DNA from: Podarcis vaucheri
Taxonomy: Eukaryota
Direction: 5' to 3' (one strand)
Assembly (NCBI GenBank): GCA_965113315.1
Contig: OZ220365.1
Length of the DNA: 64,000 nt
The notes below the pieces were generated by a model. That model was not told where the DNA came from. It searched no databases and saw nothing but the letters and a program-made list of their open reading frames with translations. Position numbers and translations under genes: made by a program. Below are positions 24,014-58,396 of this stretch, piece after piece (positions within the stretch are counted from its first letter, which is position 1; each line of letters begins with the position of its first letter).

Positions 24014-25714
24014 GTGAGCAGCACCAACCTCTTTTGCTTCTACTACCCGCTGATTATTGGCTAGGCAGATCGAGCCCCTCCAAGCAGCCTCGTAGTTAAT
24101 TTATGCGGCTGAAATAAAATAGTTCCTCAATTTATTGTAGAGGTTCTACAAGGCGAAAGGGATCCGAGAGCCTATGGATAAAGCTCTTGATAGATCATAT
24201 TATTATTTTTCCAGGTCAGCAAAACCATTTTCCATAATTGAATTATCCACTCTTATTATCACCCCCCATACCTGTGGTATCCTAAACTACCCCTGTATTG
24301 GAAAGTGAACACTGCTGATTTTCCTGGCGTTTAATTCAATGTTAAAATGCTTATTTCTCATGGCACCCTAGCACCCCAGGCCAACCTTTAAACAGGTTGG
24401 TATTTAGTAATTTGGTATTTAGTCCCTAATTATAATCAATGGGGAGCACGCTAGCAAAATGTTTACTGTCCAAAGTGTGAGTTGCCAAGTTTCAGATTTT
24501 GACTTGCTTTTTAAGACCCGATTTATTTTTGTTGTTGTTGGAGTGTATGCCTTGACAATATTACAAATAAAACAAATGTGGGTTTAAACTACTTGCACTT
24601 TGAGGGATACATCTAAAGCCAAATACAAACACGTTTAAATGTTACTTCTCCTAAGGTTATTCGTGCTTGAGAACTAACTGGGGGTGGGGGTGAAATCCTT
24701 TGATTGCGAACTTGGGCTGCCCATCCGAAGTTAGGAGCCAATCTTTTCTCTTTTCCCGGGTCCATAACTCCACAGTACTCCCCGCCCCCACGGATGAGTT
24801 TGCTGAGAAATGAAGAAATGGGGTGTTAATGGGCTTTCCCCGTGTCTTTTCAAATGCTGTTATAGCCTGATCCACAACCCAGTTAAGCCGGAAGTCGTGG
24901 CATATAATGCGAGAAAGTGCTGTCTATCCCCAGCTCAAGAAGTTCTCTGTCCTTCAGAAATGCTTGAGTTCTCCTGACCCTGAATGCGCAGGCAGCCGGG
25001 CTTTCACTGTGAGGTAACCCTCTGCTGACTTCAGTGAAACTCGCTCCCATTGCAGGGCTGCAGCTTTAAACCGTCATTCCAAAAAGCGTATTTGTTCTGC
25101 AAAGTAGCACCAATTTAATTCTGCTGCAGTTACTGCGGAGTAAATTATACCTGGGATTGCAGCTTTACTTGGAGGATTCAAGACCTAAGGTCTTCCCTGG
25201 AACTTACGTCCAACTAAAGTTCTTTTTAAAAATTATTTAAATGACTGGGCTGTAAATAATCTATTTAAGTACAGATACTTCCATTTTAACTGGGTTGTCG
25301 CCAAGAGACCCAGAACTTCAAGTGAGCTGCTCTTTTACGTCGGAGGCCGCTCAGGAAACTCAGTCTGCAACCCGAATAGAATTTCCGTCGGCGCTTACCT
25401 CCCCTCCTCCTCCTCCCTGTGGTCCGCAGAGTTTCTCACCCTCCCCTACGCCAACAGACGCTTTGTGTTTCTATTTATGCGCCTTTAAAAATATCAGGAG
25501 CTGCCCTTGTGGTTTGGGCTTCTTTGTGCCTCCCCCGCCCCCACCTCCTGATTCGCTTGCTGGACGGGAGAGCGGCGAGCGCGCGTCTCTCCTCCACCTC
25601 CCCATCCAGAACCAGGGGCCGGGGGGGGGGCGGAGGGAGGGGCGGCGGGGCGGATCTTGACCATGCCGACACGGGTCCTAAACACCCCCTGTCTTTCTGT
25701 CCCGGGACCCGCAG

Positions 25715-25866
25715 CCACCCCTCGGAAGCAGCGGAGGGAGCGCACCACCTTCACCCGCTCGCAACTGGACGTCTTGGAGGCGCTTTTCGCCAAGACCCGC
25801 TACCCGGACATCTTCATGAGAGAGGAAGTGGCGCTGAAAATCAACCTGCCGGAGTCCAGAGTCCAG
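25715..25866 (+). CDS. OTX1: OTX1 coding exon 2 (homeodomain N-terminal arm to start of helix 3)
   Basis: AG at 25713-25714; 152 bp; (A)[50 protein letters not shown]; GT at 25867 at the paired-class Q/V intron position. Confidence 0.98.
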
Positions 25867-28800
25867 GTCCGATGGCCCTTGGGAAAGCAGCGAAGCTGGG
25901 GCAGAAGGGCGGCTTGGCCGGGGCGGGGGGCGCTGGGGGTTTTGTTCTTGCCTTGGCGGGGCGCGCTAGAAAACGGGAAAGGACTTTACGCGTGGAACGT
26001 TCGCTTTGTTTTAATTTGCGGATTTTTCTCATTTTTTGTGTGGCCATATCTTCCCTGAGTTCGCACCTAACTAGGCCTCTCTTGCTAAACTGCAGCTAAA
26101 ATTCTTTACCCGCCAATGCTGGAGCGAAATAACTTTTCGGCGCTTAAGTTATATAACCAAAAGTCTCACAATTAGGAGCTTTGAAGCCGCTTGTTGGAGT
26201 CTGAACAACCGCCTCCGTTTGGCGTCAAGGTCCAATTCCCCTAGCTGGACCCTCTCTATTGACTTGTTTTCTCCTTCTCACTAGTCAGGGGGCTAAGAAT
26301 CCCGATCCTAAACACAGATAAATGGGCACACTCCAGCCAAAGTTCGATCCAACTGATGCCCACCAAGTTCAGTTGGGTTTGAGATCAAACAAATACCCCT
26401 AGCTTTTTAATTTTAAAGTGTGGCTGACTTTTGTTGGATTGTGCGTAATTTGTTTAAACCCCATTGATTTTCATCAGGGTTGGTTTTTTTACCTTTTAAA
26501 TCTAAACTTTAATTTAAAAATTGCCAATTCAATAAACAAAACAACAAACTAAAATGCATCATAAAATGTAATAAGGGCAAACAGAATGAAAATACATTAT
26601 AAGGTAATAGAGCTAAATAAAGAGAATGGATAGCATAAAAGATATTCCATGGTGGGATACAGGATTCATTTTTATGCAAAATATATTAAGTATTCATAAA
26701 CATCACTAGATAAAATCATATTGAGTAGGAGTGTGGCAACCATGAGTTTTTTGGTCATGTAAATAATGAACAACGACCAGACAATGCAAAATCTGAGGAG
26801 TCTGCGTTGCCCCTGGAAGCATGTATCTTATGAGTCAGTTTTTAATAAATGACAATAAACACAACATTTTTGAACCATGAGTCCAAAGAGTAGCAAGATG
26901 TGTCCTTTCACCCTTGAGAAACCACTAAGCAAGCAGCAAATATAAAATGAATTGTTTACAAATAAGATTGGCATTGGCACCATCAAAAATAGACAAAAGA
27001 CATAACTGAGAGCCCAGAGTGACCTGTTTGTCTATGATAATACTAATTTCTGTTGCCGCCTAATTCCAGAACTTGTTTACATAGTTACATCCCCACCACA
27101 TATGCCAGTATGCTCCTCATACAGTACCTTGCAACCCCATGAGCATAAGGGGGAGCCATATCTAACAATAGAAGCTATTAAAATCAGTTTCAGTATGTTT
27201 AAGGTCTCCTCCCCCAGGCACATTTGGAGAAAATTTCCTTAAAATATTACCAAGTAAATATGTGTTATATTCAAGACAATCCTAAATACACTTAGAGCAG
27301 AACCTTAAACATTATTAGTTGGAAGTCTCTCACTAGGACTTCTTTACAACTTAATTTTTTTGTGATTTCTACCTTTCTTGGAAGGAAAAATCACATTAAT
27401 TTCAATTGAAGTCTATTTCCACGGGGCGCCACAAGGGATTGCAGGGCGGCATGGGGGCTGCTGGGTGTCCCTGGGTGCTGCAATGTCCCCTCTTTAAAAA
27501 AGCTCCGCCCTAGGCACCCCTAGTGCAGACCCATTGAAGAGACATGGTTGACCCTGAAGTAGTTCAGCTGACTCCCACAGGACTAGTAAAATAAACATTG
27601 TGACCCAGTTGCTACATTATGTGAGGCTTTTATTTTGTTATCTTCCCACCTCATCCCACACATACATTTCCCTTTCCTGTAGCATCTTAAGCTCAGTTGT
27701 TGACTTGAAACTCACACACTGGCTTTGCCATATATGAGGGTTTGCTTTTCAGTTTGTTTATTCCAAAAGACTAGGAGCAGGCAGACGCTAATTTGCCAGA
27801 CTTCAGGTTGCTGTGTTTGGAGTGGGTGTGGGTATGTATGCGTACACACCTTGGCTCAAGTCAGAATCCTAGGAAGAAAATCTTTTTTAAATGCACTTTG
27901 AGCTCAGATTTCTCAAGCCTTTATTTCCCTAAAGCCCACTTTCCTCCAGATGGATCCCCAACAGTCAACAAGGGGCACCTCTAGAACTAAATTCTGCTAA
28001 TTTGGCTGCTGCTGCAGCTGCTGCTGCTGCTGCAGGCTAGAGTGGAAAGCAGATACTCCTTCACAGGAGTCCAAAAGAGCCAGTTCCATTTTGAACATTT
28101 TGATGCAGAGAGGTGAACGAAGGGTGTTTATTATTTTGCATTTGCAAAGTTTTGCTAATAAGATTTTGACCAGTCTGCACAACTCTGGGGAAGCCCCCCT
28201 TAGCTGGGCTTGGCATCACACCAAGCCTGCCACCCTTGATGCAATCCAGCTTCATCTGGCTAGAGCTTGTTTCAGGGGTTTCCTCTGACAACCCATGGAA
28301 AAGGAGGGATTCAGTTTCAGCCTGCTGAGGCAAGGTCATAGACTATTTCCTGACCATACCTCCCTTGCTGTATTAGTGTTAGGGACTAGATAGGACAGGC
28401 CATAAGGCTGCTCTTTAGAACTGTAAATATACCTGTAATGAAAATGCAACCACACCTCTGTTGTGCAAGGTGAGATTCTTCCTATCTGCTAATTATCTGG
28501 TCAATGTCCTCTTTCTCTTTGAGGGTCATTTCAGACCTAAGGGGTTTTCTACATGGAAAGCATTTACCTGGAAAAGAAAGGAATTAAAAAGTGCATGTCA
28601 TTGTTGCATTTCAATGCATGCATGCATGTTATGTGGGCAGGCTGTGTTTTACTACATGTAAATGGAGTGAAGTACAACTATGCATAATAGATCACAGAGA
28701 GTTATGTATGTAGGACGCTATTAATGACTAAAATGGCTCCAAGATCTGTTCCTACATGTATTTACCTATGAGCAAGCCCTATTGGAAACTCACTGGGACT

Positions 28801-30187
28801 TGCAGTGGTAAAGCACCTATTGGAAAGAGTGTTACTCTGATCAAGGTTCAATGCAAACATACTTGAAATTAAGTCTGTTTCCTATACTGTTATTGTATTC
28901 GTGAAATAGCTACTAGCTGATGTGGCATGTTACTTAACAAAAAAAGAATCTATGATTAAAATGTTAGCGATTGAGGCTGAGATTCACAAAAGCTTACCAA
29001 ATATCACAAGGATAGCCTGTATGGGAGGTGGGGGGGAGGGACTTATGTGAGAATTACAGCCATTCTGAATTCCATACTGTGGGTTCTCTGGACTTGGATT
29101 GCTACACTGAAATTCCAGTTCCCACAAAGTGATTAAGGGAGCTCCATCTTGTCTGTCAGATAATAAGATGAACTGAGTTTCCATATAAAGGATAGATAAG
29201 TGCACTGTGATTACGATGGTGTTAAGGCAGCTAAGTCCTGGAAGCAAACTGTTTTAACTTCAAAAATTCTGTGCTCATCGCACTGTCAGGCGGTTGGTGA
29301 AATGATATGTAGGTGGTAGTCAACGTGACACAGTCTTGAAACTCTACTGGGAATTTCATTGAAGGACTGGCTGTAACAGAGCACTTAATTCAACTGGGTG
29401 GTGACTGGGCTGTATGTCCTTGGCACTGACAGGTGGATGTTATGCTGGTTACAACTTGATTTTCTCATGTTAAGATGAGAACTCTAGCTGGTAAATTGTT
29501 GAATTGATGAGACAACCTTGCATAAGTAATAATGGGAAACAAGACTCATTTGGCTGCTCTTCAGTGTGCTGGTAGCAACTGTATCATGCTGATGCTGATA
29601 TCCTTTCATACTGACAACACTGAGTGGTGTTCCTTGCCTTTTTACGCCATAGACTCAGCTGGGCAAGTGTACACTAAAGCAGTGGCTGTTATGATAGTTT
29701 TTGGTTGGATATGGATTTGGTTCATGTTTGTTCCATGTAGTTTGGTGGAGCAGAGTTTATCTAGGAGCTTGCTAAAGGATGCAGGATACTGATTGTCTTA
29801 GACTTTTTGGAGATGTAGATGAGGGAGCTGACCGACTGATGAGCAAAAGGAAGAGTAGACAGTGGGCAGTAGTAACAGGATAGAATGCTACCTGTTGACT
29901 AATCTTACAGGTTGAAGGATAAGGAATGACACAGTAAAAATGCTGGCTTGCTCTTAACTGATCATAAAGGATACTAATGGTGCTATGTACTGGGATGGGT
30001 GTGTCTGCAACAAAGGAATGGTTCCTGTTTTGGGTATGCTGAGAGTTATACTGTCTTTTATACTATCTTTTAGGAGATAGTATAAAGCAGGGTATATTAA
30101 GATGATAGCTCTAGATATATATTTAGGGGGGAGGCCAAGCTGGGTACTGTTGAACGGAACAGGCTGAGAACTTTGTTCCTAATGGCT

Positions 30188-30311
30188 TAAGGTTACCAGA
30201 TTTTTTTTTCAATGAATCTGGGGACACTTTTCAACTTCAATGGATTTTGTATGGGGACTGGTTTGTAAATCCGGGGACTGTCCCTGGGAAACGGGACGTC
30301 TGGTAACCTTA
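30188..30311. mobile_element. hAT (Blackjack-like) MITE in an OTX1 intron
   Basis: Perfect 13-bp TIR TAAGGTTACCAGA / TCTGGTAACCTTA and perfect 8-bp TSD TAATGGCT (30180-30187 and 30312-30319). Confidence 0.9.
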
Positions 30312-30629
30312 TAATGGCTCCCTCTCTCTGTAGGATGGGAATGTAGAATGGGGTTGGAAAGAGAATACTGTGTTCTGTTGGACGGATGCTTAATTAGGGG
30401 TGCAATTCTCCACATCTAGCATTTGCCTGTTGGGTGCAGATGAATCCTCCTTGCTAGATATTTGAGAGGGACAGGTGGAGGGATGGATTTAACATCTTTG
30501 CTACATTTAAAATCTCTAGCTAATAGGATTCTTTAATAGCAATCCTTTGGGCAAGGAGCTGCAAGGAGCTCTGTAGCAGTGCATGCTTTAGGAGAAGAAA
30601 ATCCCAGATTAAATCTCCAGTTTATGAAT

Positions 30630-30738
30630 GGAGAGATCCTCCTTGGAAACCCTGGAAATCCATTGCCAGACAGTGTAGACAATACTGAGCTAGCTGGACC
30701 AAAGGTTTGACTCAGTATAAGACAGTTTCTCATGTTCC
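30630..30738 (+). mobile_element. SINE/CR1-tail fragment
   Basis: ..GCCAGACAGTGTAGACAATACTGAGCTAGCTGGACCAA..TGACTCAGTATAAGACAGTTTCTCATGTTCCT, a common squamate SINE 3' end. Confidence 0.6.
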
Positions 30739-31563
30739 TGCGCTGATGGCTGGCTCATTGCCTGCTTCTATTGGATGTTACTAGTAGAAGGTGCATGAGG
30801 TACTGGACTGCCAGCTTAATTTATAAATGGCTATAAGGAGGATTGGTTGGACAGGGCTGTGTTGGTGGAACTGGTGCAGACTCCCACTCCCTTTCCTACT
30901 TTTTGGATAGTATGACATGATGGATGTGGGTGGACTGGCAGCCCCTCTCTGCAGGAGCCTGCTGGGAGGAGGATGGAAGTTGGCTAGGGGGGAAACTTGA
31001 TCAAACCATGATGGGTTGCGTCATTCACCTGAGCGGAAGATGGGTGTCATGCCAGGCGGGTGCTGAGTCTGGGGGTGTTTTGGCTAGGGTGTGGTTTGTG
31101 GTGGCTACGTGGGGTTCCAGAGTCGCCCAGAACTGGTTAGCTGGGTTCTGTTCTGGGTCGCACCAGCGACTTACCTTCCCTTTCTCGCGGGCCCCACATG
31201 GACGCAACAGTGTGCGGAGACTGGCGAGAGAGAAGGCGCTGAGCCAGAGCCGGGTGGCTCCTGATTGCCACTCGTAGGAAGCCGGCAATGGATGTGTAGA
31301 TCCATTGTGTAGTGATGCGTAGTGATGGAGGATGATAGGCTAGCCTGGACAGCTGCTCAACGGCCTCTTCCCCCCTGCCCCATTCCGCGTAGATTGAGAT
31401 TGTTTGGCACTTTTCTGTCTCGTTGCGATCACACAGCGTGTGCCAAAGGGGGCGAGGGGAAGAGAGCGGGGGGGCAGAGCGGGGGTGGGGTCCCTTCTTC
31501 GTGGAAGAGCCTGTTCCGCCCCCCGCCCCCATTTTCTTTTCTTTTCTTTTCTTTTCCTTGCAG

Positions 31564-32400
31564 GTCTGGTTCAAAAACCGCCGCGCCAAGTGCCGCCAGC
31601 AGCAGCAGAGCGGCAGCGGCGCCAAGAGCCGGCCGGCCAAGAAGAAGGCGTCTCCGGCGCGGGAGAGCTCGGGCTCGGAGAGCAGCGGCCAGTTCACGCC
31701 GCCCGCCGTCTCCAGCTCCGCCTCGTCCTCCTCCTCCAGCTCCAACTCCTCGGGCCCGGCCAGCGGGGCGGCGGCCTTGGGCAACCCGGCGGGCAGCGGG
31801 GCCTCCGGCTCGGCCTCGTCCTCCTCCTCGGCGTCCCTCAGCAGCGCGCCCTCGGCCGTGGCCGCCTCGTCCATCTGGAGCCCCGCGTCCATCTCGCCGG
31901 GCGCCGTGCCCGAGCCCCTGGCGCCCGGCGGCGCCTCCTGCATGCAGCGCTCGGTCTCGGGCGCGCCCTCCGCCTCCTACCCGATGTCCTACGGGCAGGG
32001 CGGCGGCTACGCGCAGGGCTACCCCGCGCCGCCCCCGCCGCCCCCGCCGCCCTCCTCCTCCTACTTCGGCGGGGTGGACTGCGGCTCCTACCTGCCCATG
32101 CACGCGCACCCGCACGCCCACCAGCTCAGCCCCATGGCGCCCTCCTCCATGGCCGGCGCGGCGCACCCGCACGCCCACCACCCGCTGGGCCAGGGCTCCA
32201 GCCACCACCACCATCACCACCACCACCACCACCACCAGCCGGGCTACGGGGGCACCGGACTGGCCTTCAACTCCTCCGACTGCCTGGACTACAAGGAGCC
32301 GGCCCCAGCCGCCGCCGCCTCGTCCTGGAAGCTGAACTTCAACTCCCCGGACTGCCTGGACTACAAGGACCAGGCCTCCTGGCGCTTCCAGGTGCTGTGA
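31564..32400 (+). CDS. OTX1: OTX1 coding exon 3 (K50 recognition helix, SIWSPA motif, His tract, duplicated Otx tail)
   Basis: Long polypyrimidine tract plus CAG at 31561-31563; [23 protein letters not shown]11..[26 protein letters not shown] at 32398-32400. Spliced protein 361 aa. Confidence 0.98.
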
Positions 32401-40120: not shown

Positions 40121-40187
40121 CTGCTTGGCAGGGGGTTGGACTCGATGGCCCTTGTGGTCTCTTCCAACTCTATGATTCTATGATTCT
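40121..40187 (+). mobile_element. Young, extremely 5'-truncated CR1 3' end
   Basis: ..GGGGGTTGGACTCGATGGCCCTTGTGGTCTCTTCCAACTCTATGATTCTATGATTCT with the CR1 (ATTCTATG)n tail; identical over 63 bp to 57892-57954. Confidence 0.9.
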
Positions 40188-45025: not shown

Positions 45026-47628
45026 TTAATCTAGAATAGTTTAACTGAAGTATCATTTAGTGGGACAGTTTCATGCTGTAAGTCATGGGCTGCAATCCCA
45101 TTTGGACCTTCATTCAAATTCACTCCAGGACCAAAAGGCTTCTGTCTTGAATGTGAAATATGCAAACCATTCCCTGCTGAGGAGTCAGATAACGCACTGG
45201 CATATAAGCACACTGTGGATTCATTTGTTGACTTCAGTAGGCTCAGAATTACTTGCAATAGTTAATTTCCTCTTCCCCTTGCCCTGCCTCCCAAACAAGA
45301 CTGTAGGAAGCCAGAATGCAGTCCTGTCCTTCTTTCACCTCCATGTGGAGATGACATGGGAGAACACCAGAAGGTGAATTGAAGTTGTGCGCATAGAGTC
45401 AAAAATAAATTCTTTCTCTAATTCCTCAGAGTGATGGGGAAGGAAATTAAGAGGCTATTAGAGTTAATGTAGGTACACGCTAAAGTATGTATACTAGCTG
45501 TCTCTGCAGTCGCCTGAGTATATGTCTTAATAATGGGCTGCAGGGAAAATAAGTTTGTTTCTTTCCTTTTGAAATTCACAGTAAAATAGGAATTGTAACA
45601 GTGCCCAGGAGCACTGTGGTAATTTAAGGGTCTGTCAACATTTTCATAATAAACTGACGGGGTTTTTTTGGTGGAGGGTTTCCGTATTTCTGACTTGACT
45701 GTTTAAATTTTGCTTCAGGCAGATGGCATACAACTGTAATGTAGAGGAAAAGATATTTAAAAATATAAACACAGCAGGGTTTCAGGTAGTCTTGCAGCCC
45801 AGTTTTAGCCAGTTTAGTTCTACCAAAACTTTGTTTAAGAGCAAAAGGATCTTTTATTGCATCATTACAACTACAAGTTCAGTGATCCCACTTCCACATA
45901 CACAAAGCACTTTGAGAACAATCTGTTTTAAAATAACTGTGATGCTAGAAGCTTGATTTGGGATCCTTCTTGCAACTTCTCTAGTAGCTAAAGCAATAAA
46001 GCATTGCCTTTCCTTTTGAGGAGTGAGGCAGGGGTGTTCTGTTTTATACACTTCTAACTTCCAGTTTGGGGAGCGTTAACATTTTCAGCTTGCAGCGTAG
46101 CTGATGGCACATGCGCTTGACCCAAATATAGCTTTTGTAGAAACACTGGTTCTAGCATCTAGACTGGATAAATGGATGAGATTAAAAACCCTATTGAAAT
46201 TCCAGTGACTCTGCAGTGGTGAAACAGCTCCTAAGTTCAGCAGAATACTGTCCCCTTAGGAATTGTAGTATACTATTAAGATGGCCTACAAACAATCAGT
46301 TCCACAAACTAGTTCAGCAGAGTACTTATTATTGTTACTGTTCTTATTTTATTATTATCACCAGCCCTTCACAAGCAGGGTTATAGCAATTCAGAATTTA
46401 GAATTAAAAACAGTTAAAGCAAATTACAGTCACACAAATAAGGTGTTGGCAGGCTTGGAGGTTTTAAAAAGTGGTAAGGGTTGAATGTGTACTAACCTTA
46501 TAGAAAGCAGAAACAGCAGGTCTGGCAAAGAACAACCTTCTGTGTACTGATAGTAGGACAGCATTCTCCGTGTTGCACCTGAGAGTGGCAGGCTAGCTGG
46601 GGGCCTCTTGTTGTCCTACACAAAGTAGCCCCTAATTTCAAGAGGTCTACTCTGAGTAGGACTAGCACTGAATACCACCCGTGGTTTTGAAATTTCCTAG
46701 AGTTCAGCTAGCATTTTGTCTGGCAGCTCTACTCTATGCACTTAAGGGGATTTTGCTCCCAGCTACCCATTCAGTCACTTTTGACTGCTGCAACATCAGA
46801 CGAGGACTTTCTCTTCACTTCTCCCATCAGAGATTGAGCTAGGCTGTTAACATTTTTTTTAAAAAATCATCTGTAGGTTTAATCTTTCCCTCCCCCCTTC
46901 TGTTCTTTTTGTGTTTGGTTTCTCTCTGTTGCTTCATACACCTCAGGGCAGCTCTCCTGCCTTTTCTCAGGCTTATTATGAGTTTGGGCGACGGGGGTGG
47001 GGGGAAATAGGCTGTATGCACGAATGCAAGTTCCTTCTAACCCCTGGATCCAGCAACTGTTAAAATATAAGCCAGGTGAGCTTCCTGTTTTGAAGTAATC
47101 GCCCGGATGCCTAACAGCAAATGGGTTGCGCCCCTCAGACAAAGCCTGAGTTTAGAGTTAAAAAGGGCAAGCTGGAGAGAGAGAGTCAGAGCAAGGTTTG
47201 AAAGCAAAGTTTGATTTCTGTTTGAATCTAAGACTGTGGCTGTGGGAGAAACTAGACCCTTTTGGGGTGTTAATGCTGTGAACCCCTCCATCGTAGACTC
47301 AGGCTATGTGTATATATGTGTAAATAAACCATATATCCTAAAGACACCAGTCTCCGCTGTCCCTCATTCCAAAAGAAAACACAAACTGTGGGTAAGCACT
47401 TGGAATCTATGGAATCTTGCCCCAGTCGGAGATTGGGGTGGTGTGCAACAGGCCTATAGCTCAGTTCTCTTTTCAGGTCCTCCATTATCTCCCAAGACAG
47501 ATGGATGCCCACAGTAAATTGCTGCCCACTGATGGGCGCAGCCTGTGCCAACTGCACTTGGGAAAAGGGCACATTGTCAATCATTGCAGTGTTACCAGCA
47601 ATTTATGAAAGAAGTGTGCCAACTTGTG

Positions 47629-50201
47629 CAGGGTTGCCATATTTTGGAGAGCAAAAAAGAGGACACATTTGCTGACTTCTACTTTTAACTACAGATCTCT
47701 ATGAAAACTCTCATTTGAAATATCCCTACTATATGTAGGCTATTCCCACATAAACTTACATAGGATTCCACTACTGATGGCCATTAAGACACAGAGGTTA
47801 GATGCCATCTGTCAGGGACATAAGAGCGATAGGTCCTTTGGATTAGTAGTACAGCAGCAGCCAGCCTTCCCTCCAGATTCTGATGACTGCCGGCCACTGC
47901 CTCTCAGGGTTCATTGATCAGCAAACTGTAGAGTTGGAAGGGGTCCTGAGGGTCTGATATGACTATCATTCTCTGAAATTTCCTCTCTGCCCCCCAGCGC
48001 CCTCTGAAGCTGACCACCACCCACCCACCCCACTTCGCCCCTCTACCTGCCAGGCAACTTTGAGGTGCTGGAAGCCGTGGTTGAAGAGCAGCTCCTGCAG
48101 CACCATCTGCACTGGCACATTATGGTCAAAGGGCAAGCACAGCAGCCAGTGGAGGGGCTTGGGGCTGCGTGGGTCATTGCCCACCTGCATCTTGGGGTTG
48201 GCCCCTCCATGCGCCCCATGGCTGTGTGCCACCAAGAAGTGGAAGTGGAGTAGTGGCTTGCTGGGCACCTTGGTGGCCTGGCAGGTCGAGCTCAGGTCCA
48301 GCTGGAAGGAGCCATTTCCAGCACCAGGGGAGTTGTCATGGAAGGGAAACTACCCGCGGCTTCTGGTTCCACTCTGCCTTAATGGAGGCAGCTCCCACGA
48401 CAGCAGGAGATTGTTGGTGAAGGAAATCCCAGGATGATTGAAGGTAATTATCATTGCAAATTCCCTCCAGGGACGGGGTGGGGTGGGGATGGACTTCATT
48501 CGCAGTTCGTCTCGGTACCTGGCTCTCGCTCAGGCATGGATTGTGGGAGGCAGGGAGGTGCTGAGTGCAAAAAAGTCTTACAAGGACAGGAAGAAACAAC
48601 ACGGACAAAATAAGCCTCCAAAAACCCTCCAATGCCACCAATAAGAAGCAGAGGTTTTCCAGTTAATTAGAGTTTAATTGGACAAAAGTACAGGCACATG
48701 CTAGAAGAGATGAGATCACAAACTGCGGAACAATAACAACTGCAAAGACTTTAAGGTTTGAATTTGAGATACGAGTAAGACTTCATTCGGTGCAAAAGAT
48801 GGTGTGTGGGGAGGGGAGCTTATGGTTTCTTTATTTAAAGTTTTCTTTTCTACATTTAGGATTTGGCAACCCTCCTCTTAATGTTAGTTCAAAGTAGTTG
48901 TATTTGTACAAGCAAGGACGGAAGAAATTGGATTATCGATATGGAATGTAATATTAAACGGAACTGTGTGTGTAAAAAAACAGGAGAAAGGGAGGGAAGC
49001 TCTATTTTTGCAAAAGGTTTATGATGGAAACTTAGAGCTGACTCTTCCCCATCCTTTATTATTTACGGAGTGAACTGAATAATGCTAAGAGGACTTGGAA
49101 TTTAATTTAATTGGAAGTATAATTGCTCATTTATCTTCAGTTGGACAGAAGGATGAAAGGAGTCTGTGAACTTGCCAAGGAACTGATAAGGTTCACTACT
49201 GAGTCATCTGCAGTTCAACAGACCACTCTTCTTCCCAGGCTGAGAGGGAAAAGGGTAAAAACAGGTTATTTATTGGGACACAGTGATTTTTGCATCTGTT
49301 GTTAAAGTTGTAAAACAATGAAGCATGAAACTGAGCAATTTAGAAATTTCAGGAACAACAGTGGGATATCAGCTCTGCCCAAGGCATGATGGAGTACAGC
49401 AAGAACCGGGCGAAAGAAAGACATAACATCTTACAAGGACAGGAAGAAACATCACTGACAAAATAATTGCCACACACAGGAAGAACAAGGATATAGTTTG
49501 AGTTCCTCACTTGTAGTTTTATAAATTATTTAATGTGTCAACATGAATAGAAGTTATTGATACTGCAGTTGTTGTATAGGGGATTATTATTATGACCAGA
49601 ATGTAATGGAAATTAATAAGATTTTGGAACACAGAAATAAAGCAAACAATCAAGCCATCAATTCTAGCATGTGGGAGGCCATCTCATCTAAATTATATAA
49701 TTCGGTATTTGAACAATTGGTATTAATAATTGTATTATAAATTGGTATTCCTATAATGAGGATACTATTAGATTGTAATTGAAAACTAATAAAAATTATT
49801 ATCAAAAAAAGAGAAGGGAAACAACCTGCCGACCACCTCCATCACCTGGCACACAAATGGCACCACCTCTCACCCGGCCTGGCCTTGGCTGCTTCCGTTC
49901 CCTCCGCCGACTGGAAAGAAGAGCCGCGTTTCGAGGTTCCACGCTTCAGAAGGGCCCTGATAACAAAAAGCAGCAATTCTCACTCTCACACAAACATAAA
50001 CGCCTCATGCATTTGGAGTTTATAGTTGGATCAAGTCAAAGGTCTATAATCCTGCTCTCTCATCGACCCTGTGATACTAATGGTACCAAACAACACCCCC
50101 CTCCCAGACATTTAGCCAAAATTTAAAAATCCAGCTGGACAGAACTTTAAACTGTGAAAAAGAGGATGTGTCCAGGGGGAAATGAACATATGGCAACCCT
50201 A
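47629..50201. mobile_element. 2.57-kb non-autonomous hAT element with internal cargo (candidate Pack-TIR)
   Basis: TIRs CAGGGTTGCCATATTTT and (reverse complement) TAGGGTTGCCATATGTT, 15/17 identical; perfect 8-bp TSD AACTTGTG at 47621-47628 and 50202-50209; AAAAAGAGGA subterminal motifs at both ends; no transposase ORF. Confidence 0.85.
48047..48428 (-). pseudogene. Exon-like coding fragment of an unidentified gene inside the hAT element
   Basis: 127 codons with one in-frame TAG (48350-48352); strongly C/G-ending codons (..CTG CAG GAG CTG CTC TTC AAC CAC GGC TTC CAG CAC CTC..); donor-like CAG|GTAGAG at 48046. Confidence 0.55.
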
Positions 50202-50692
50202 AACTTGTGCCTTCTCAAATCACTTCACAGCAAAGTACTGTTTCCTCAGATCTTCCGGCACTCAGATGCAGCTCTCACTCCTACAACTGGAGATGCCAGG
50301 GCAGAATACCTCACCCAGGTAAGCAAGGGAAGGAGAAATCTACCAAGCATAGCTGTGGCAAGGGTCTTTCATGCCCCCTTTGCCCCCTCCCCTCTCGCAG
50401 TATAGGATCACTGTGTCTTGGCTCTCCTGCTTTGGAGAAATAATCTTCAACAGCAAGTAGCAGGGTCTCCTGTGCAGAAGACATGTTCCCCATATCCAGT
50501 CAATCTAGCTGTCAGTAGACACTCCACTCCAGCCATTGTTGATGCTGGTCAAGTAGTCCTGACTACATTTGTCCTGTAGGGTCACATCTTGGTCACATAT
50601 CTTGGACACACTAAGCAGAACATCCCTAGCCAGTCAACAAGGTTTTCAGAGGAGGCTCTACTGGCTATACCACAATCAGTGGACTGCCTCCT

Positions 50693-56100: not shown

Positions 56101-57832
56101 TCATCATCATCATCAACATGGGCAAGTCTTAGGGTGTCACAAAACCTTTTGTTGCTTTTGCTGCAACAGACTAATATGGCTCAGGAAATTGACTTCTGTT
56201 GGGAATATTGGCATGCTTACAGTTAGAACTAAAATGCTACTCCGTACAGTATGCACTGGTTATGCGCATGAGCTGGTTCTCCCTATTTGTTTGATAAATA
56301 TTACTACCTAGAATGTGGCCCATCTTGAGGCCTGCAGGTATAGGGCGGTATATAAATTCAGTAGAGGAGGAGGGGGAGGAGGAAATGTTTCCTGATTCAA
56401 AAAAGCCCTGCCAAAAAGAAGGAAAGAAATGATGTACTTGTTAGTATGTTATGATAAAAAGTGGACCTACCTTATGTGAGAAACTCCTTTCTGCAATATG
56501 ACAGGCATCAACAACTGTGTGCTTTAGGGGTCTATCAAAACCATGGCTTGCTTGCCACTTCCTAATAATTGAGGCCAATTTGAACTGCTTTTGGAGCTCT
56601 AACGATGATGTTCATTAAATTGTTTTATTGCTTTTTTATTACTGCTTTTGTAAACTGCTTTGAGATTTATTTGTTTTTTTATAGAAAGTGTCTTCAAATT
56701 GTTTTAAAGAAATTTATACTTCGGGGGGGGTGTATAGAGAACAGTTATGTTCTGTGGTTGCAGTGTGTGATCACATCAATGGTGTAGAGGGAAAGCAAGC
56801 AAATGAAAAACACATTTTCACTGGCTGGGAAAAGGTTTATCAAATGATGGGAAGGTGCAGTGGGGAAGACATCCCTGTTGGTGCGGAGTGTGTGTGTGTA
56901 TTTTAGGTTAGTTGGTTAGCAGGGATCACACAGTTTCTAATCAACTTGGAGAAGCATTTCAAAATAGTGGGAAATGGGGAGTGAATGATGCCACAACACA
57001 CAACACACAACACACAATCTAGCAGGTGCATTGTTTTGTATCCAGCACAGTAGCTGGAGAAAATATGTTTGTGGTCTCCTGCAACAGCTGTGTACTAATG
57101 AGTGACTCTATACATTAACACACTGGTCTCAAAATGCCCTTAGCAGAGTAAGATAACAGAAGAAGAGAAAGCTTAAAATCATATGCTTTGGAAAGCAATA
57201 GTGCACTTGCTTTTGTAAAATGTAAGTCTGTCTATCCCTTTGTTTAAAAAGCTGCCCAATCTGCAATCCAGGTAAATCCACCTACATTAAACCAATCTAA
57301 GCCCCATCAAGTTCAAGCTGATCTACAGCTCAGCTAAGTACAAGGATCTTAAGCTGATTAATACCCTGACACTATACATGTTTCTTGGAAATAAGTCTTA
57401 TTGAAATCAATGGGACATGCTACTAAGTAATATGTTTAGAATTGGAGTTTTAGCCAATTGGCTTAAATCCTAATAATTCACATTAATTGGATTTGAGAAT
57501 CTGGCAACCATTAAACGTTCTCTGTCCATTAAACCTAGACAGGAGATATTTGATGTAGAATAAGTAGTACAGTCACGAAGATCTTCATTGTCTGCATTGG
57601 ATTCTATTTGATGTTCCAGGGAGGTGACAGGTTCTTAGAATTGCTGAACCTAAACCGACTTGTTTGGAAATCACAACCCATGTCAGAAGTGTAGTTTTTG
57701 GTGAACTTCCACAAAAATAGCTCCAAATCTTCTTCTTCAATAGCTTTGGGCAAAACAAAAACAAGAAGCTCAAGGAAAAAGGTAGTGAAAGTCACTATGG
57801 CAAGATTCTTCTTTTCAGTGTAGGACTTAGAA

Positions 57833-57954
57833 TCATAGAATCATAGAGTTGGAAGAGACCACAAGGGCCATCGAGTCCAACCCCCTGCTTCCTGCTTGGC
57901 AGGGGGTTGGACTCGATGGCCCTTGTGGTCTCTTCCAACTCTATGATTCTATGA
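57833..57954. repeat. Perfect inverted repeat of two CR1 3' ends (56-bp arms, 10-nt spacer)
   Basis: 57833-57888 is the exact reverse complement of 57899-57954. Confidence 0.95.
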
Positions 57955-58396
57955 CTTTATTGTCCAGGATAATACCAGGTGTTACTATACTGTGTCCCAT
58001 AGCTGACATTTGCACAGCACAGTGATGTTGCCATGTATACTCAATGAATACTCAATGAATACTCAATGCCATACAGCAAAAAGTAAAGTGCATTCATGAA
58101 TAACGAATTAAACATCAGTTTTTTAGTCACAGTGATAAACGAAAAGTGTCTTAGCCAATTCTCAGCTGTTAACTGAACACCTGTCTTCCAACTTTTGGCA
58201 ACCTAACCTAGCATCTGTCAGCATAAGCCCAACAAATAGGTTTAGGTGGGGATATGTAATAAATAATAAAAAGATAACAGAAAAATGGGGGAAGAGTGAG
58301 CAAAGCAGGGGACCAAAAAAAGGAGAAATATTTTTGGAAATAATCTGACCTTAAGCATTTCCAAAAAAAGCATTGAAGTAGTAGTTTAATTTTAGG

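What the first reader, a model, noticed from the sequence alone, without database searches (positions are those of the whole stretch)
48047..49956. Two minus-strand exon-like fragments of an unidentified gene inside the element
Seen: an 83-bp CpG-rich segment (49956-49874) has a good acceptor (CTTTTTGTTATCAG) and donor (G|GTGAGA) and reads GPSEAWNLETRLFFPVGGGNGSSQGQA or ALLKRGTSKRGSSFQSAEGTEAAKARP. A 382-bp segment (48428-48047) reads ISFTNNLLLSWELPPLRQSGTRSRG*FPFHDNSPGAGNGSFQLDLSSTCQATKVPSKPLLHFHFLVAHSHGAHGGANPKMQVGNDPRSPKPLHWLLCLPFDHNVPVQMVLQELLFNHGFQHLKVAWQ, with vertebrate-like high GC3, one stop and a donor-like end; its acceptor is one substitution from consensus (CCTGG). Inference: DNA-level, intron-retaining capture from a GC-rich donor gene. 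I could not identify the protein.
Basis: partly seen in the sequence, partly recalled or inferred. Interest (0 to 1): 0.7.

Follow-up and report, generated by a model that had tools for sequence, protein, structure and literature searches.

The report
Transposon carrying broken ACTR5 gene start
The two "exons" are one decayed copy of the start of the chromatin gene ACTR5, held inside a small cut-and-paste jumping element of a lizard and later split by a second insertion; a sister copy on another contig suggests the loaded element likely moved, a known but rarely seen kind of gene capture in vertebrates.

Summary
The sequence is real, but these are not two exons of an unknown gene. Both pieces come from one exon, ACTR5 (Arp5) exon 1 plus upstream DNA; the intact donor lies on contig C25. 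A 1,455-bp non-LTR-type insertion with a 17-bp target duplication split the copy. The cited acceptor lies in that insertion and the stop codon in the duplicated target site. The cargo, including an inverted piece of intron 1, sits in a 2,573-bp hAT-type element with 14-bp inverted ends and a perfect 8-bp duplication. It is decaying neutrally: 32 of 64 CpG positions changed against 20 of 225 others. A sister copy on C18 shares the arms, arm variants and cargo, which points to transposition after capture. Two more ACTR5 starts, fused to CDK8 intron 1, lie in what looks like a different inverted-repeat family. Verdict: a dead multicopy Pack-TIR, a new member of a known kind. An unchecked note of this scan reports a similar HCN1 case in another lizard genome.

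The parts
47629..50201 (-). Whole Pack element: non-autonomous hAT-type transposon, 2,573 bp with its later insertion; 14-bp terminal inverted repeats with one mismatch (TAGGG.../CAGGG...)
   Evidence: TIR scan with up to 2 mismatches gave 5 hits in the window; only this pair faces inward and is flanked by a duplication
50202..50209 (.). 8-bp target-site duplication, copy 1
   Evidence: 8/8 identical to 47621-47628
47621..47628 (.). 8-bp target-site duplication, copy 2
50085..50201 (-). Left arm of the MITE family; carries two variants shared with the C18 copy
50025..50084 (-). About 60 bp of filler, source not found
   Evidence: no match in 40 kb around the donor; not searched alone genome-wide
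49813..50024 (-).
   Evidence: 77% identity to the donor over 150 columns
49813..49829 (.). 17-bp target-site duplication of the retro-insertion, copy 1
   Evidence: 15/17 identical to 48341-48357
48358..49812 (+). 1,455-bp non-LTR (L1-like) repeat: fixed 5' start, A-rich tail, long variable target duplications, no long ORF; inserted into the captured exon after capture
48341..48357 (.).
48047..48340 (-). Rest of ACTR5 exon 1, with a 59-bp and a 1-bp deletion against the donor; 82% identity; ends at the true splice donor
47955..48046 (-). Sequence after the splice donor, partly shared with the C18 copy but absent from today's donor intron; likely the older intron-1 start
   Evidence: about 45 columns align by eye; inference
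47848..47954 (+). Piece of ACTR5 intron 1, inverted relative to the exon; direct in the C18 copy
   Evidence: 82% identity
47744..47847 (-). About 100 bp of filler, source not found (about 20 bp may continue the inverted intron piece)
   Evidence: no other match for this part
47629..47743 (-). Right arm of the MITE family
   Evidence: up to 92% identity to family members

Best explanation
This is a decayed copy of the 5' end of ACTR5 (upstream DNA, exon 1, part of intron 1) inside a non-autonomous hAT-type DNA transposon, which likely picked it up by template switching during repair or replication and likely moved at least once afterwards. Shown: donor identity, DNA-level cargo, inverted ends, 8-bp duplication, a second copy with the same arms and cargo on another contig with unrelated flanks, the later retro-insertion, and CpG-driven decay. 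Inferred order: (1) a MITE broke or stalled and copied about 1 kb of the ACTR5 CpG island from contig C25; (2) a transposase supplied in trans spread the loaded element; (3) in this copy a piece of intron was inverted, small deletions arose, and an L1-like element inserted ten codons into the exon; (4) the cargo became methylated and decayed. It most likely does nothing now.
For: Donor: the only non-repeat match of the long segment is C25 (82% over query 119-407, E 1.7e-73); the short segment matches 158 bp upstream of that in the same exon region; donor exons 1 and 2 match human Arp5 residues 2-125 and 126-201. Element: TIRs and 8/8 duplication; both arms are abundant repeats (102 and 1,244 first-look candidates, 40 scored each), and the commonest family members are about 280 and 630 bp with no ACTR5 cargo. 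No family arm lies in the 40 kb around the donor, which argues against end-bypass transduction. One origin for the window and C18 copies: same arms; the left-arm variant CTAAA is in both and in 1 of 35 other scored arms; both have Ser codons where donor and human Arp5 have Gly, at a non-CpG site; both share post-exon sequence missing from today's donor; cargo ends within 3 bp of the same intron position. Decay: 32 of 64 CpG positions changed (29 transitions) against 20 of 225 others; 29 of 90 residues changed against 28.4 +/- 3.8 in 5,000 neutral simulations; an open frame survives in 18% of simulations. No reads on the unique cargo in 2 of 2 RNA runs of a related species, of which about 12% and 6% were read (weak, no positive control).
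Against: The C18 copy's left end is interrupted, so its target duplication cannot be read; distinct duplications, the usual proof of transposition, are shown for one copy only. No transposase for this family was looked for. Only 7 of 33 TIR-paired family members (58 loci examined) show an 8-bp duplication with at most 2 mismatches; some look like 7 bp. Shared differences from the donor cannot be polarised without an outgroup, except the one Gly site. dN/dS is 0.60, not 1; selection on the donor branch and CpG bias can account for this, but it was not partitioned. The 5' piece kept more CpGs (8, donor 14) than the exon body (4, donor 32). Two fillers have no known source.
Confidence: 0.8

Rival explanations
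1. Capture without movement: a MITE already resident here was gap-filled from ACTR5, and the C18 copy arose when another resident MITE was repaired from the loaded one (ectopic conversion).
For: Most animal Pack-TIRs form this way (PMC8277862). The C18 copy's duplication cannot be read. A conversion tract starting in the arm would also copy the arm variants.
Against: Donor and copies lie on three different contigs, whereas gap filling shows a bias to nearby donors and the multicopy cases in that paper were distal. It needs two rare long-range events.
Confidence: 0.12
2. Independent captures: the ACTR5 CpG island is a favoured template and was copied separately into each element.
For: ACTR5 starts also sit in a second, differently ended repeat. 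The window and C18 copies differ in structure (inversion, deletions).
Against: Shared arm variants, the shared Gly-to-Ser change and matching cargo end. This rival remains open for the second family.
Confidence: 0.05
3. The captured ACTR5 promoter piece is still active as a promoter or enhancer 15 kb downstream of OTX1.
For: The 5' piece kept 8 CpGs (o/e 0.91) while the exon body fell to o/e 0.15. The locus is held by 9 organism labels.
Against: Per site the contrast is modest (8 of 26 against 32 of 64). Organism I shows C>T changes at four of these CpGs and a 15-bp deletion (my reading of places 49875, 49908, 49925, 49927, 49930). Non-CpG divergence is no lower there (14 of 112). No RNA reads in 2 runs.
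Confidence: 0.03
4. One reading: two consecutive exons of an unknown gene, or a processed retrocopy.
For: Splice-like motifs and high GC3 are present.
Against: One donor exon explains both pieces; the copy runs on into intron sequence, and the exon-2 start has 0 matches in the window at up to 3 mismatches.
Confidence: 0.005

Closest known systems
Multicopy animal Pack-TIRs, e.g. Pack-hAT-N8_XT carrying the CAPSL 5' UTR in western clawed frog (Tan et al. 2021, PMC8277862; parts 1-3 of 10 read, plus passages and a supplement search)
   Same: Non-autonomous hAT-type element, host 5' sequence as cargo, donor and copies on different chromosomes or contigs, more than one copy.
   Different: Older and more rearranged (9-15% non-CpG divergence, inversion, nested insertion); about 1 kb with promoter-side DNA, coding exon and intron against a median of 224 bp; distinct duplications shown for one copy only. 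That survey listed 0 Pack-TIRs for the anole, but its anole library held 0 hAT consensus sequences.
Rice Pack-MULEs (PMC5861414; passages read)
   Same: Preferential duplication of GC-rich gene sequence by a TIR element; here both identified donors (ACTR5, CDK8) are GC- and CpG-rich gene starts.
   Different: Short 14-bp hAT-type ends and 8-bp duplication, not long MULE TIRs; vertebrate host; a handful of copies, with no sign of expression.
Non-autonomous hAT families of Anolis carolinensis (PMC3014272; passages read)
   Same: YARNG terminal motif and 8-bp duplication.
   Different: This TIR was not among the table rows shown (some hobo rows were cut from view); no autonomous partner identified here.
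ACTR5 / Arp5 (PDB 6hts_H); its role as an INO80 remodeller subunit is recalled
   Same: Cargo encodes residues about 36-123 of human Arp5.
   Different: A fragment of exon 1 only, split and decayed; not a paralogue.

Membership tests
Pack-TIR (Tan et al. 2021) | Non-TE host sequence flanked on both sides by arms of one TIR element | tested here: met
Pack-TIR (Tan et al. 2021) | Parental copy identifiable and not linked to the TE | tested here: met
   ACTR5 on C25; no family arm in 40 kb around it
Multicopy Pack-TIR | Two or more copies with the same chimeric structure at unlinked loci | tested here: met
   C17 window and C18:1.178 Mb; flanks do not align
Multicopy Pack-TIR | Distinct target-site duplications for each copy | tested here: inconclusive
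   8/8 in the window; left end of the C18 copy is interrupted
Multicopy Pack-TIR | No empty TE at the orthologous site in an outgroup | not testable with these tools
   both related species laid already carry the loaded element; no outgroup genome offered
hAT superfamily | Terminal YARNG motif (PMC3014272) | tested here: met
   TAGGG and CAGGG
hAT superfamily | 8-bp target-site duplication | tested here: met
   8/8 in the window; in the family 7 of 33 paired elements at 2 mismatches or fewer, about 0.4% expected per pair by my arithmetic; 26 of 33 do not show it
hAT superfamily | hAT transposase in an autonomous partner with the same ends | not tested
Processed retrocopy | Exon 1 joined to exon 2, intron lost, poly(A) tail | tested here: not met
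L1-type non-LTR element (the 1,455-bp insert) | A-rich 3' tail and long variable target duplications, no terminal repeats | tested here: met
   17 bp in the window; 14-20 bp candidates in 6 of 18 other loci, the rest truncated, cut by the locus end or with none found
L1-type non-LTR element (the 1,455-bp insert) | Homology to L1 ORF1 or ORF2 | tested here: inconclusive
   no long ORF in the insert or recognisable by eye in one other copy; no profile search run; the L1 label rests on structure and recall

The most novel reading that the evidence does not exclude
Lizard hAT-type MITEs behave like plant Pack-MULEs: they repeatedly capture CpG-island gene starts and pass cargo between different element families. 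Here the same ACTR5 start rides in two differently ended families, in the second fused to CDK8 intron 1, making a multi-donor, multi-family shuffling system in an amniote.
Probability: 0.3. Interest if true: 0.65.

Novelty: new member of a known kind. Interest (0 to 1): 0.38.

Why it matters
The copy itself is probably dead. It matters as an example: only four multicopy Pack-TIRs were found in 100 animal reference genomes, none in a lizard (PMC8277862). Here one gene start occurs in four copies and apparently two TIR families, once fused to a second donor. If this is general, squamate hATs disperse promoter-bearing CpG-island fragments, and a genome-wide count would test whether the plant bias for GC-rich gene starts holds in vertebrates.

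Tried and rejected
Pfam found nothing for the copy or the donor exon; the PDB sequence search gave the name. Two-exon model, retrocopy, segmental duplication (flanks do not align) and end-bypass transduction (no arm near the donor) were rejected. Purifying selection on the copy was rejected: residue changes match neutral simulation. A solo LTR for the 1,455-bp insert was rejected on its tail and long duplications. The look-up of sequencing runs: no RNA holder listed. There is no positive control for the RNA runs and no transcription start for the donor, so 'upstream/5' UTR' is not resolved into promoter or UTR. Searches for more copies gave none beyond the four; they are insensitive, since each missed known copies, so four is a lower bound. 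The repeat finder did not recover the second family's ends; they were read from alignment and sequence. A 22-residue test of a possible WDPCP last exon gave no PDB hit. Literature: 'ACTR5 + pseudogene + transposon' 0 papers; 'squamate + DNA transposon + gene fragment + capture' 3 papers, listings only, none on this; 'Pack-TIR' appeared in one listed paper; ACTR5 had 0 hits in 12 supplement files of PMC8277862. Subscription papers, Repbase and Dfam were not searchable.

Full report
Observation. The window also holds an OTX gene at 25552-32400 (Homeodomain and TF_Otx families; the OTX1 label is recalled from its His-rich tail). The finding lies about 15 kb downstream of it.

The gene is ACTR5. 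A genome search with the long segment gave 40 scored matches: the window, one locus on contig C25 (82% over query 119-407) and 38 loci matching only the first ~95 bases. The short segment matched the same C25 locus 158 bp upstream, plus two loci on C18. The C25 exon translates to the Arp5 N-terminus (E 1.6e-45), its next exon to residues 126-201, and the window's peptide hits only Arp5 (E 2.6e-15). Alignment shows one continuous donor stretch: upstream DNA, ATG, exon 1, splice donor.

Why it looked like two exons. A 1,455-bp repeat (48358-49812, plus strand) inserted ten codons into the exon. It has a fixed 5' start, an A-rich tail and a 17-bp target duplication with 2 mismatches; 6 of 18 other loci show 14-20 bp candidates. 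It is abundant (1,044 first-look candidates) and has no long ORF. I call it L1-like from structure and recall only. The 'acceptor' of the long segment is antisense repeat sequence, the stop codon is in the duplicated target site, and the 83-bp 'exon' is non-coding sequence upstream of the ATG. A 59-bp and a 1-bp deletion against the donor happen to restore the frame.

The carrier. The cargo is bounded by 14-bp inverted repeats at 50201 and 47629 with an 8/8 duplication. Both arms belong to a common MITE family whose usual members are about 280 or 630 bp. YARNG ends and 8-bp duplications are given as hAT marks in PMC3014272 (passages). In the family, 7 of 33 paired elements (58 loci examined) show the 8-bp duplication at 2 mismatches or fewer; 26 do not. 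No transposase was sought. No arm of the family lies in 40 kb around the donor. The capture was at DNA level: the copy includes upstream DNA, the unspliced donor site and 107 bp of intron 1 in inverted orientation, and lacks the exon-2 start.

A sister copy. At C18:1.178 Mb the same arms enclose the same ACTR5 pieces, with the intron piece in direct orientation, internal deletions and its own later insertions. The two copies share left-arm variants (CTAAA in 1 of 35 other scored arms), a Gly-to-Ser codon at a non-CpG site that is Gly in donor and human, post-exon sequence absent from today's donor, and a cargo end within 3 bp. Flanks are unrelated. One capture followed by movement is the simplest reading. 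Against it, the C18 copy's left end is broken, so its duplication cannot be read, and ectopic conversion is not excluded.

A second family. Two more ACTR5 starts, at C18:109.88 Mb and C17:103.03 Mb, align with each other over about 640 bp (70-77%). After about 15 ACTR5 codons both switch to about 240 bp of antisense CDK8 intron 1 from C18:27.49 Mb, then to a short repeat piece whose flank resembles ACTR5 intron 1. They end in a different terminal sequence; the C17 copy has a matching left end and an apparent 6-bp duplication, read by eye, with support from another member. The repeat finder did not recover these ends, and the C18 copy's left end was not found, so this family is tentative and unclassified. 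Whether the cargo passed between families or was captured twice is open.

Age and function. The exon body has 32 of 64 donor CpG positions changed (29 transitions) and 20 of 225 other positions; CpG o/e fell from 0.82 to 0.15. Of 90 residues 29 changed, against 28.4 +/- 3.8 in 5,000 neutral simulations; dN/dS is 0.60 with donor-branch selection included. Twenty listed runs from 9 organism labels and 8 studies hold at least half of the sampled words. Contigs of organisms G and I cover the cargo and span the insertion's 3' junction and the left flank with about 2% other letters, so capture and insertion predate their split. Two RNA runs of organism I (about 12% and 6% read) put no reads on the unique cargo; this is weak, with no positive control and unknown tissues. 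The one hint of function is better CpG retention in the 5' piece (8 of the donor's 14 in count), but organism I has lost four of them and has a 15-bp deletion there (my reading).

Comparison. It works like, and meets the structural definition of, a Pack-TIR; the multicopy class is probable but its duplication test is inconclusive. Tan et al. (PMC8277862; parts 1-3 of 10, passages, and a search of 12 supplement files) found 370 Pack-TIRs in 100 animal genomes, four multicopy, none in the anole, whose library had no hAT entries. GC-rich cargo recalls rice Pack-MULEs (PMC5861414, passages). I found no paper on this ACTR5 copy (open-access library only). An unchecked note of this scan reports an HCN1 start in a Pack-hAT in another lizard genome; no note matched this place or sequence.

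Verdict. A real, identified and most likely dead gene fragment in a Pack-hAT; a new member of a known kind. Interest 0.38, mostly for the multi-copy, two-family, two-donor pattern.

Noticed in passing
L024/L123 (G000:C18:109.877 Mb), L133 (G000:C17:103.032 Mb), L138 (G000:C18:27.49 Mb): Two copies of a chimeric cargo: ACTR5 start fused to antisense CDK8 intron 1, inside a repeat with different ends from the window's element; apparent 6-bp duplication in the C17 copy.
   Followed up: partly
window 48358-49812: Abundant ~1.4-kb non-coding, non-LTR-type repeat with an internal 38-bp direct repeat, often full length; may be a non-autonomous L1-dependent family. Parent not identified.
   Followed up: partly
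window 48338-48382: Contigs of organisms G and I both stop aligning at 48338 with about 107 unlike letters beyond; the 59-bp deletion may be specific to this lineage, or they carry another insertion.
   Followed up: no
L064:1501-1964: Another member of the same MITE family with an interior not shared by the 16 other long members compared (microsatellite and SINE-like piece); possibly another captured cargo.
   Followed up: partly
L082, L087, L116: Some family members show what look like 7-bp rather than 8-bp target duplications.
   Followed up: no
L002:1788-2340: Donor ACTR5 intron 1 begins almost at once with a different hAT-type MITE and a SINE-like piece that are absent from the copies; they likely inserted after capture.
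   Followed up: partly
L029:1183-1230 (-), about 1.2 kb beyond the window's right end: Short terminal exon-like stretch ending in HFGLV-stop; by recall the last exon of WDPCP, which would put the element between the OTX1 and WDPCP 3' ends. PDB test gave no hit.
   Followed up: partly
G000:C26:16.08-16.68 Mb: At least 11 copies of the second repeat family's arm cluster within 0.6 Mb, suggesting a tandemly duplicated region.
   Followed up: no
window 57826-57959: Two head-to-head SINE-like copies form a 61-nt inverted repeat with a 10-nt spacer; one arm is 100% identical over 63 nt to 40121-40183.
   Followed up: no
window 25552-32400 (+): OTX homeobox gene in a large CpG island.
   Followed up: partly
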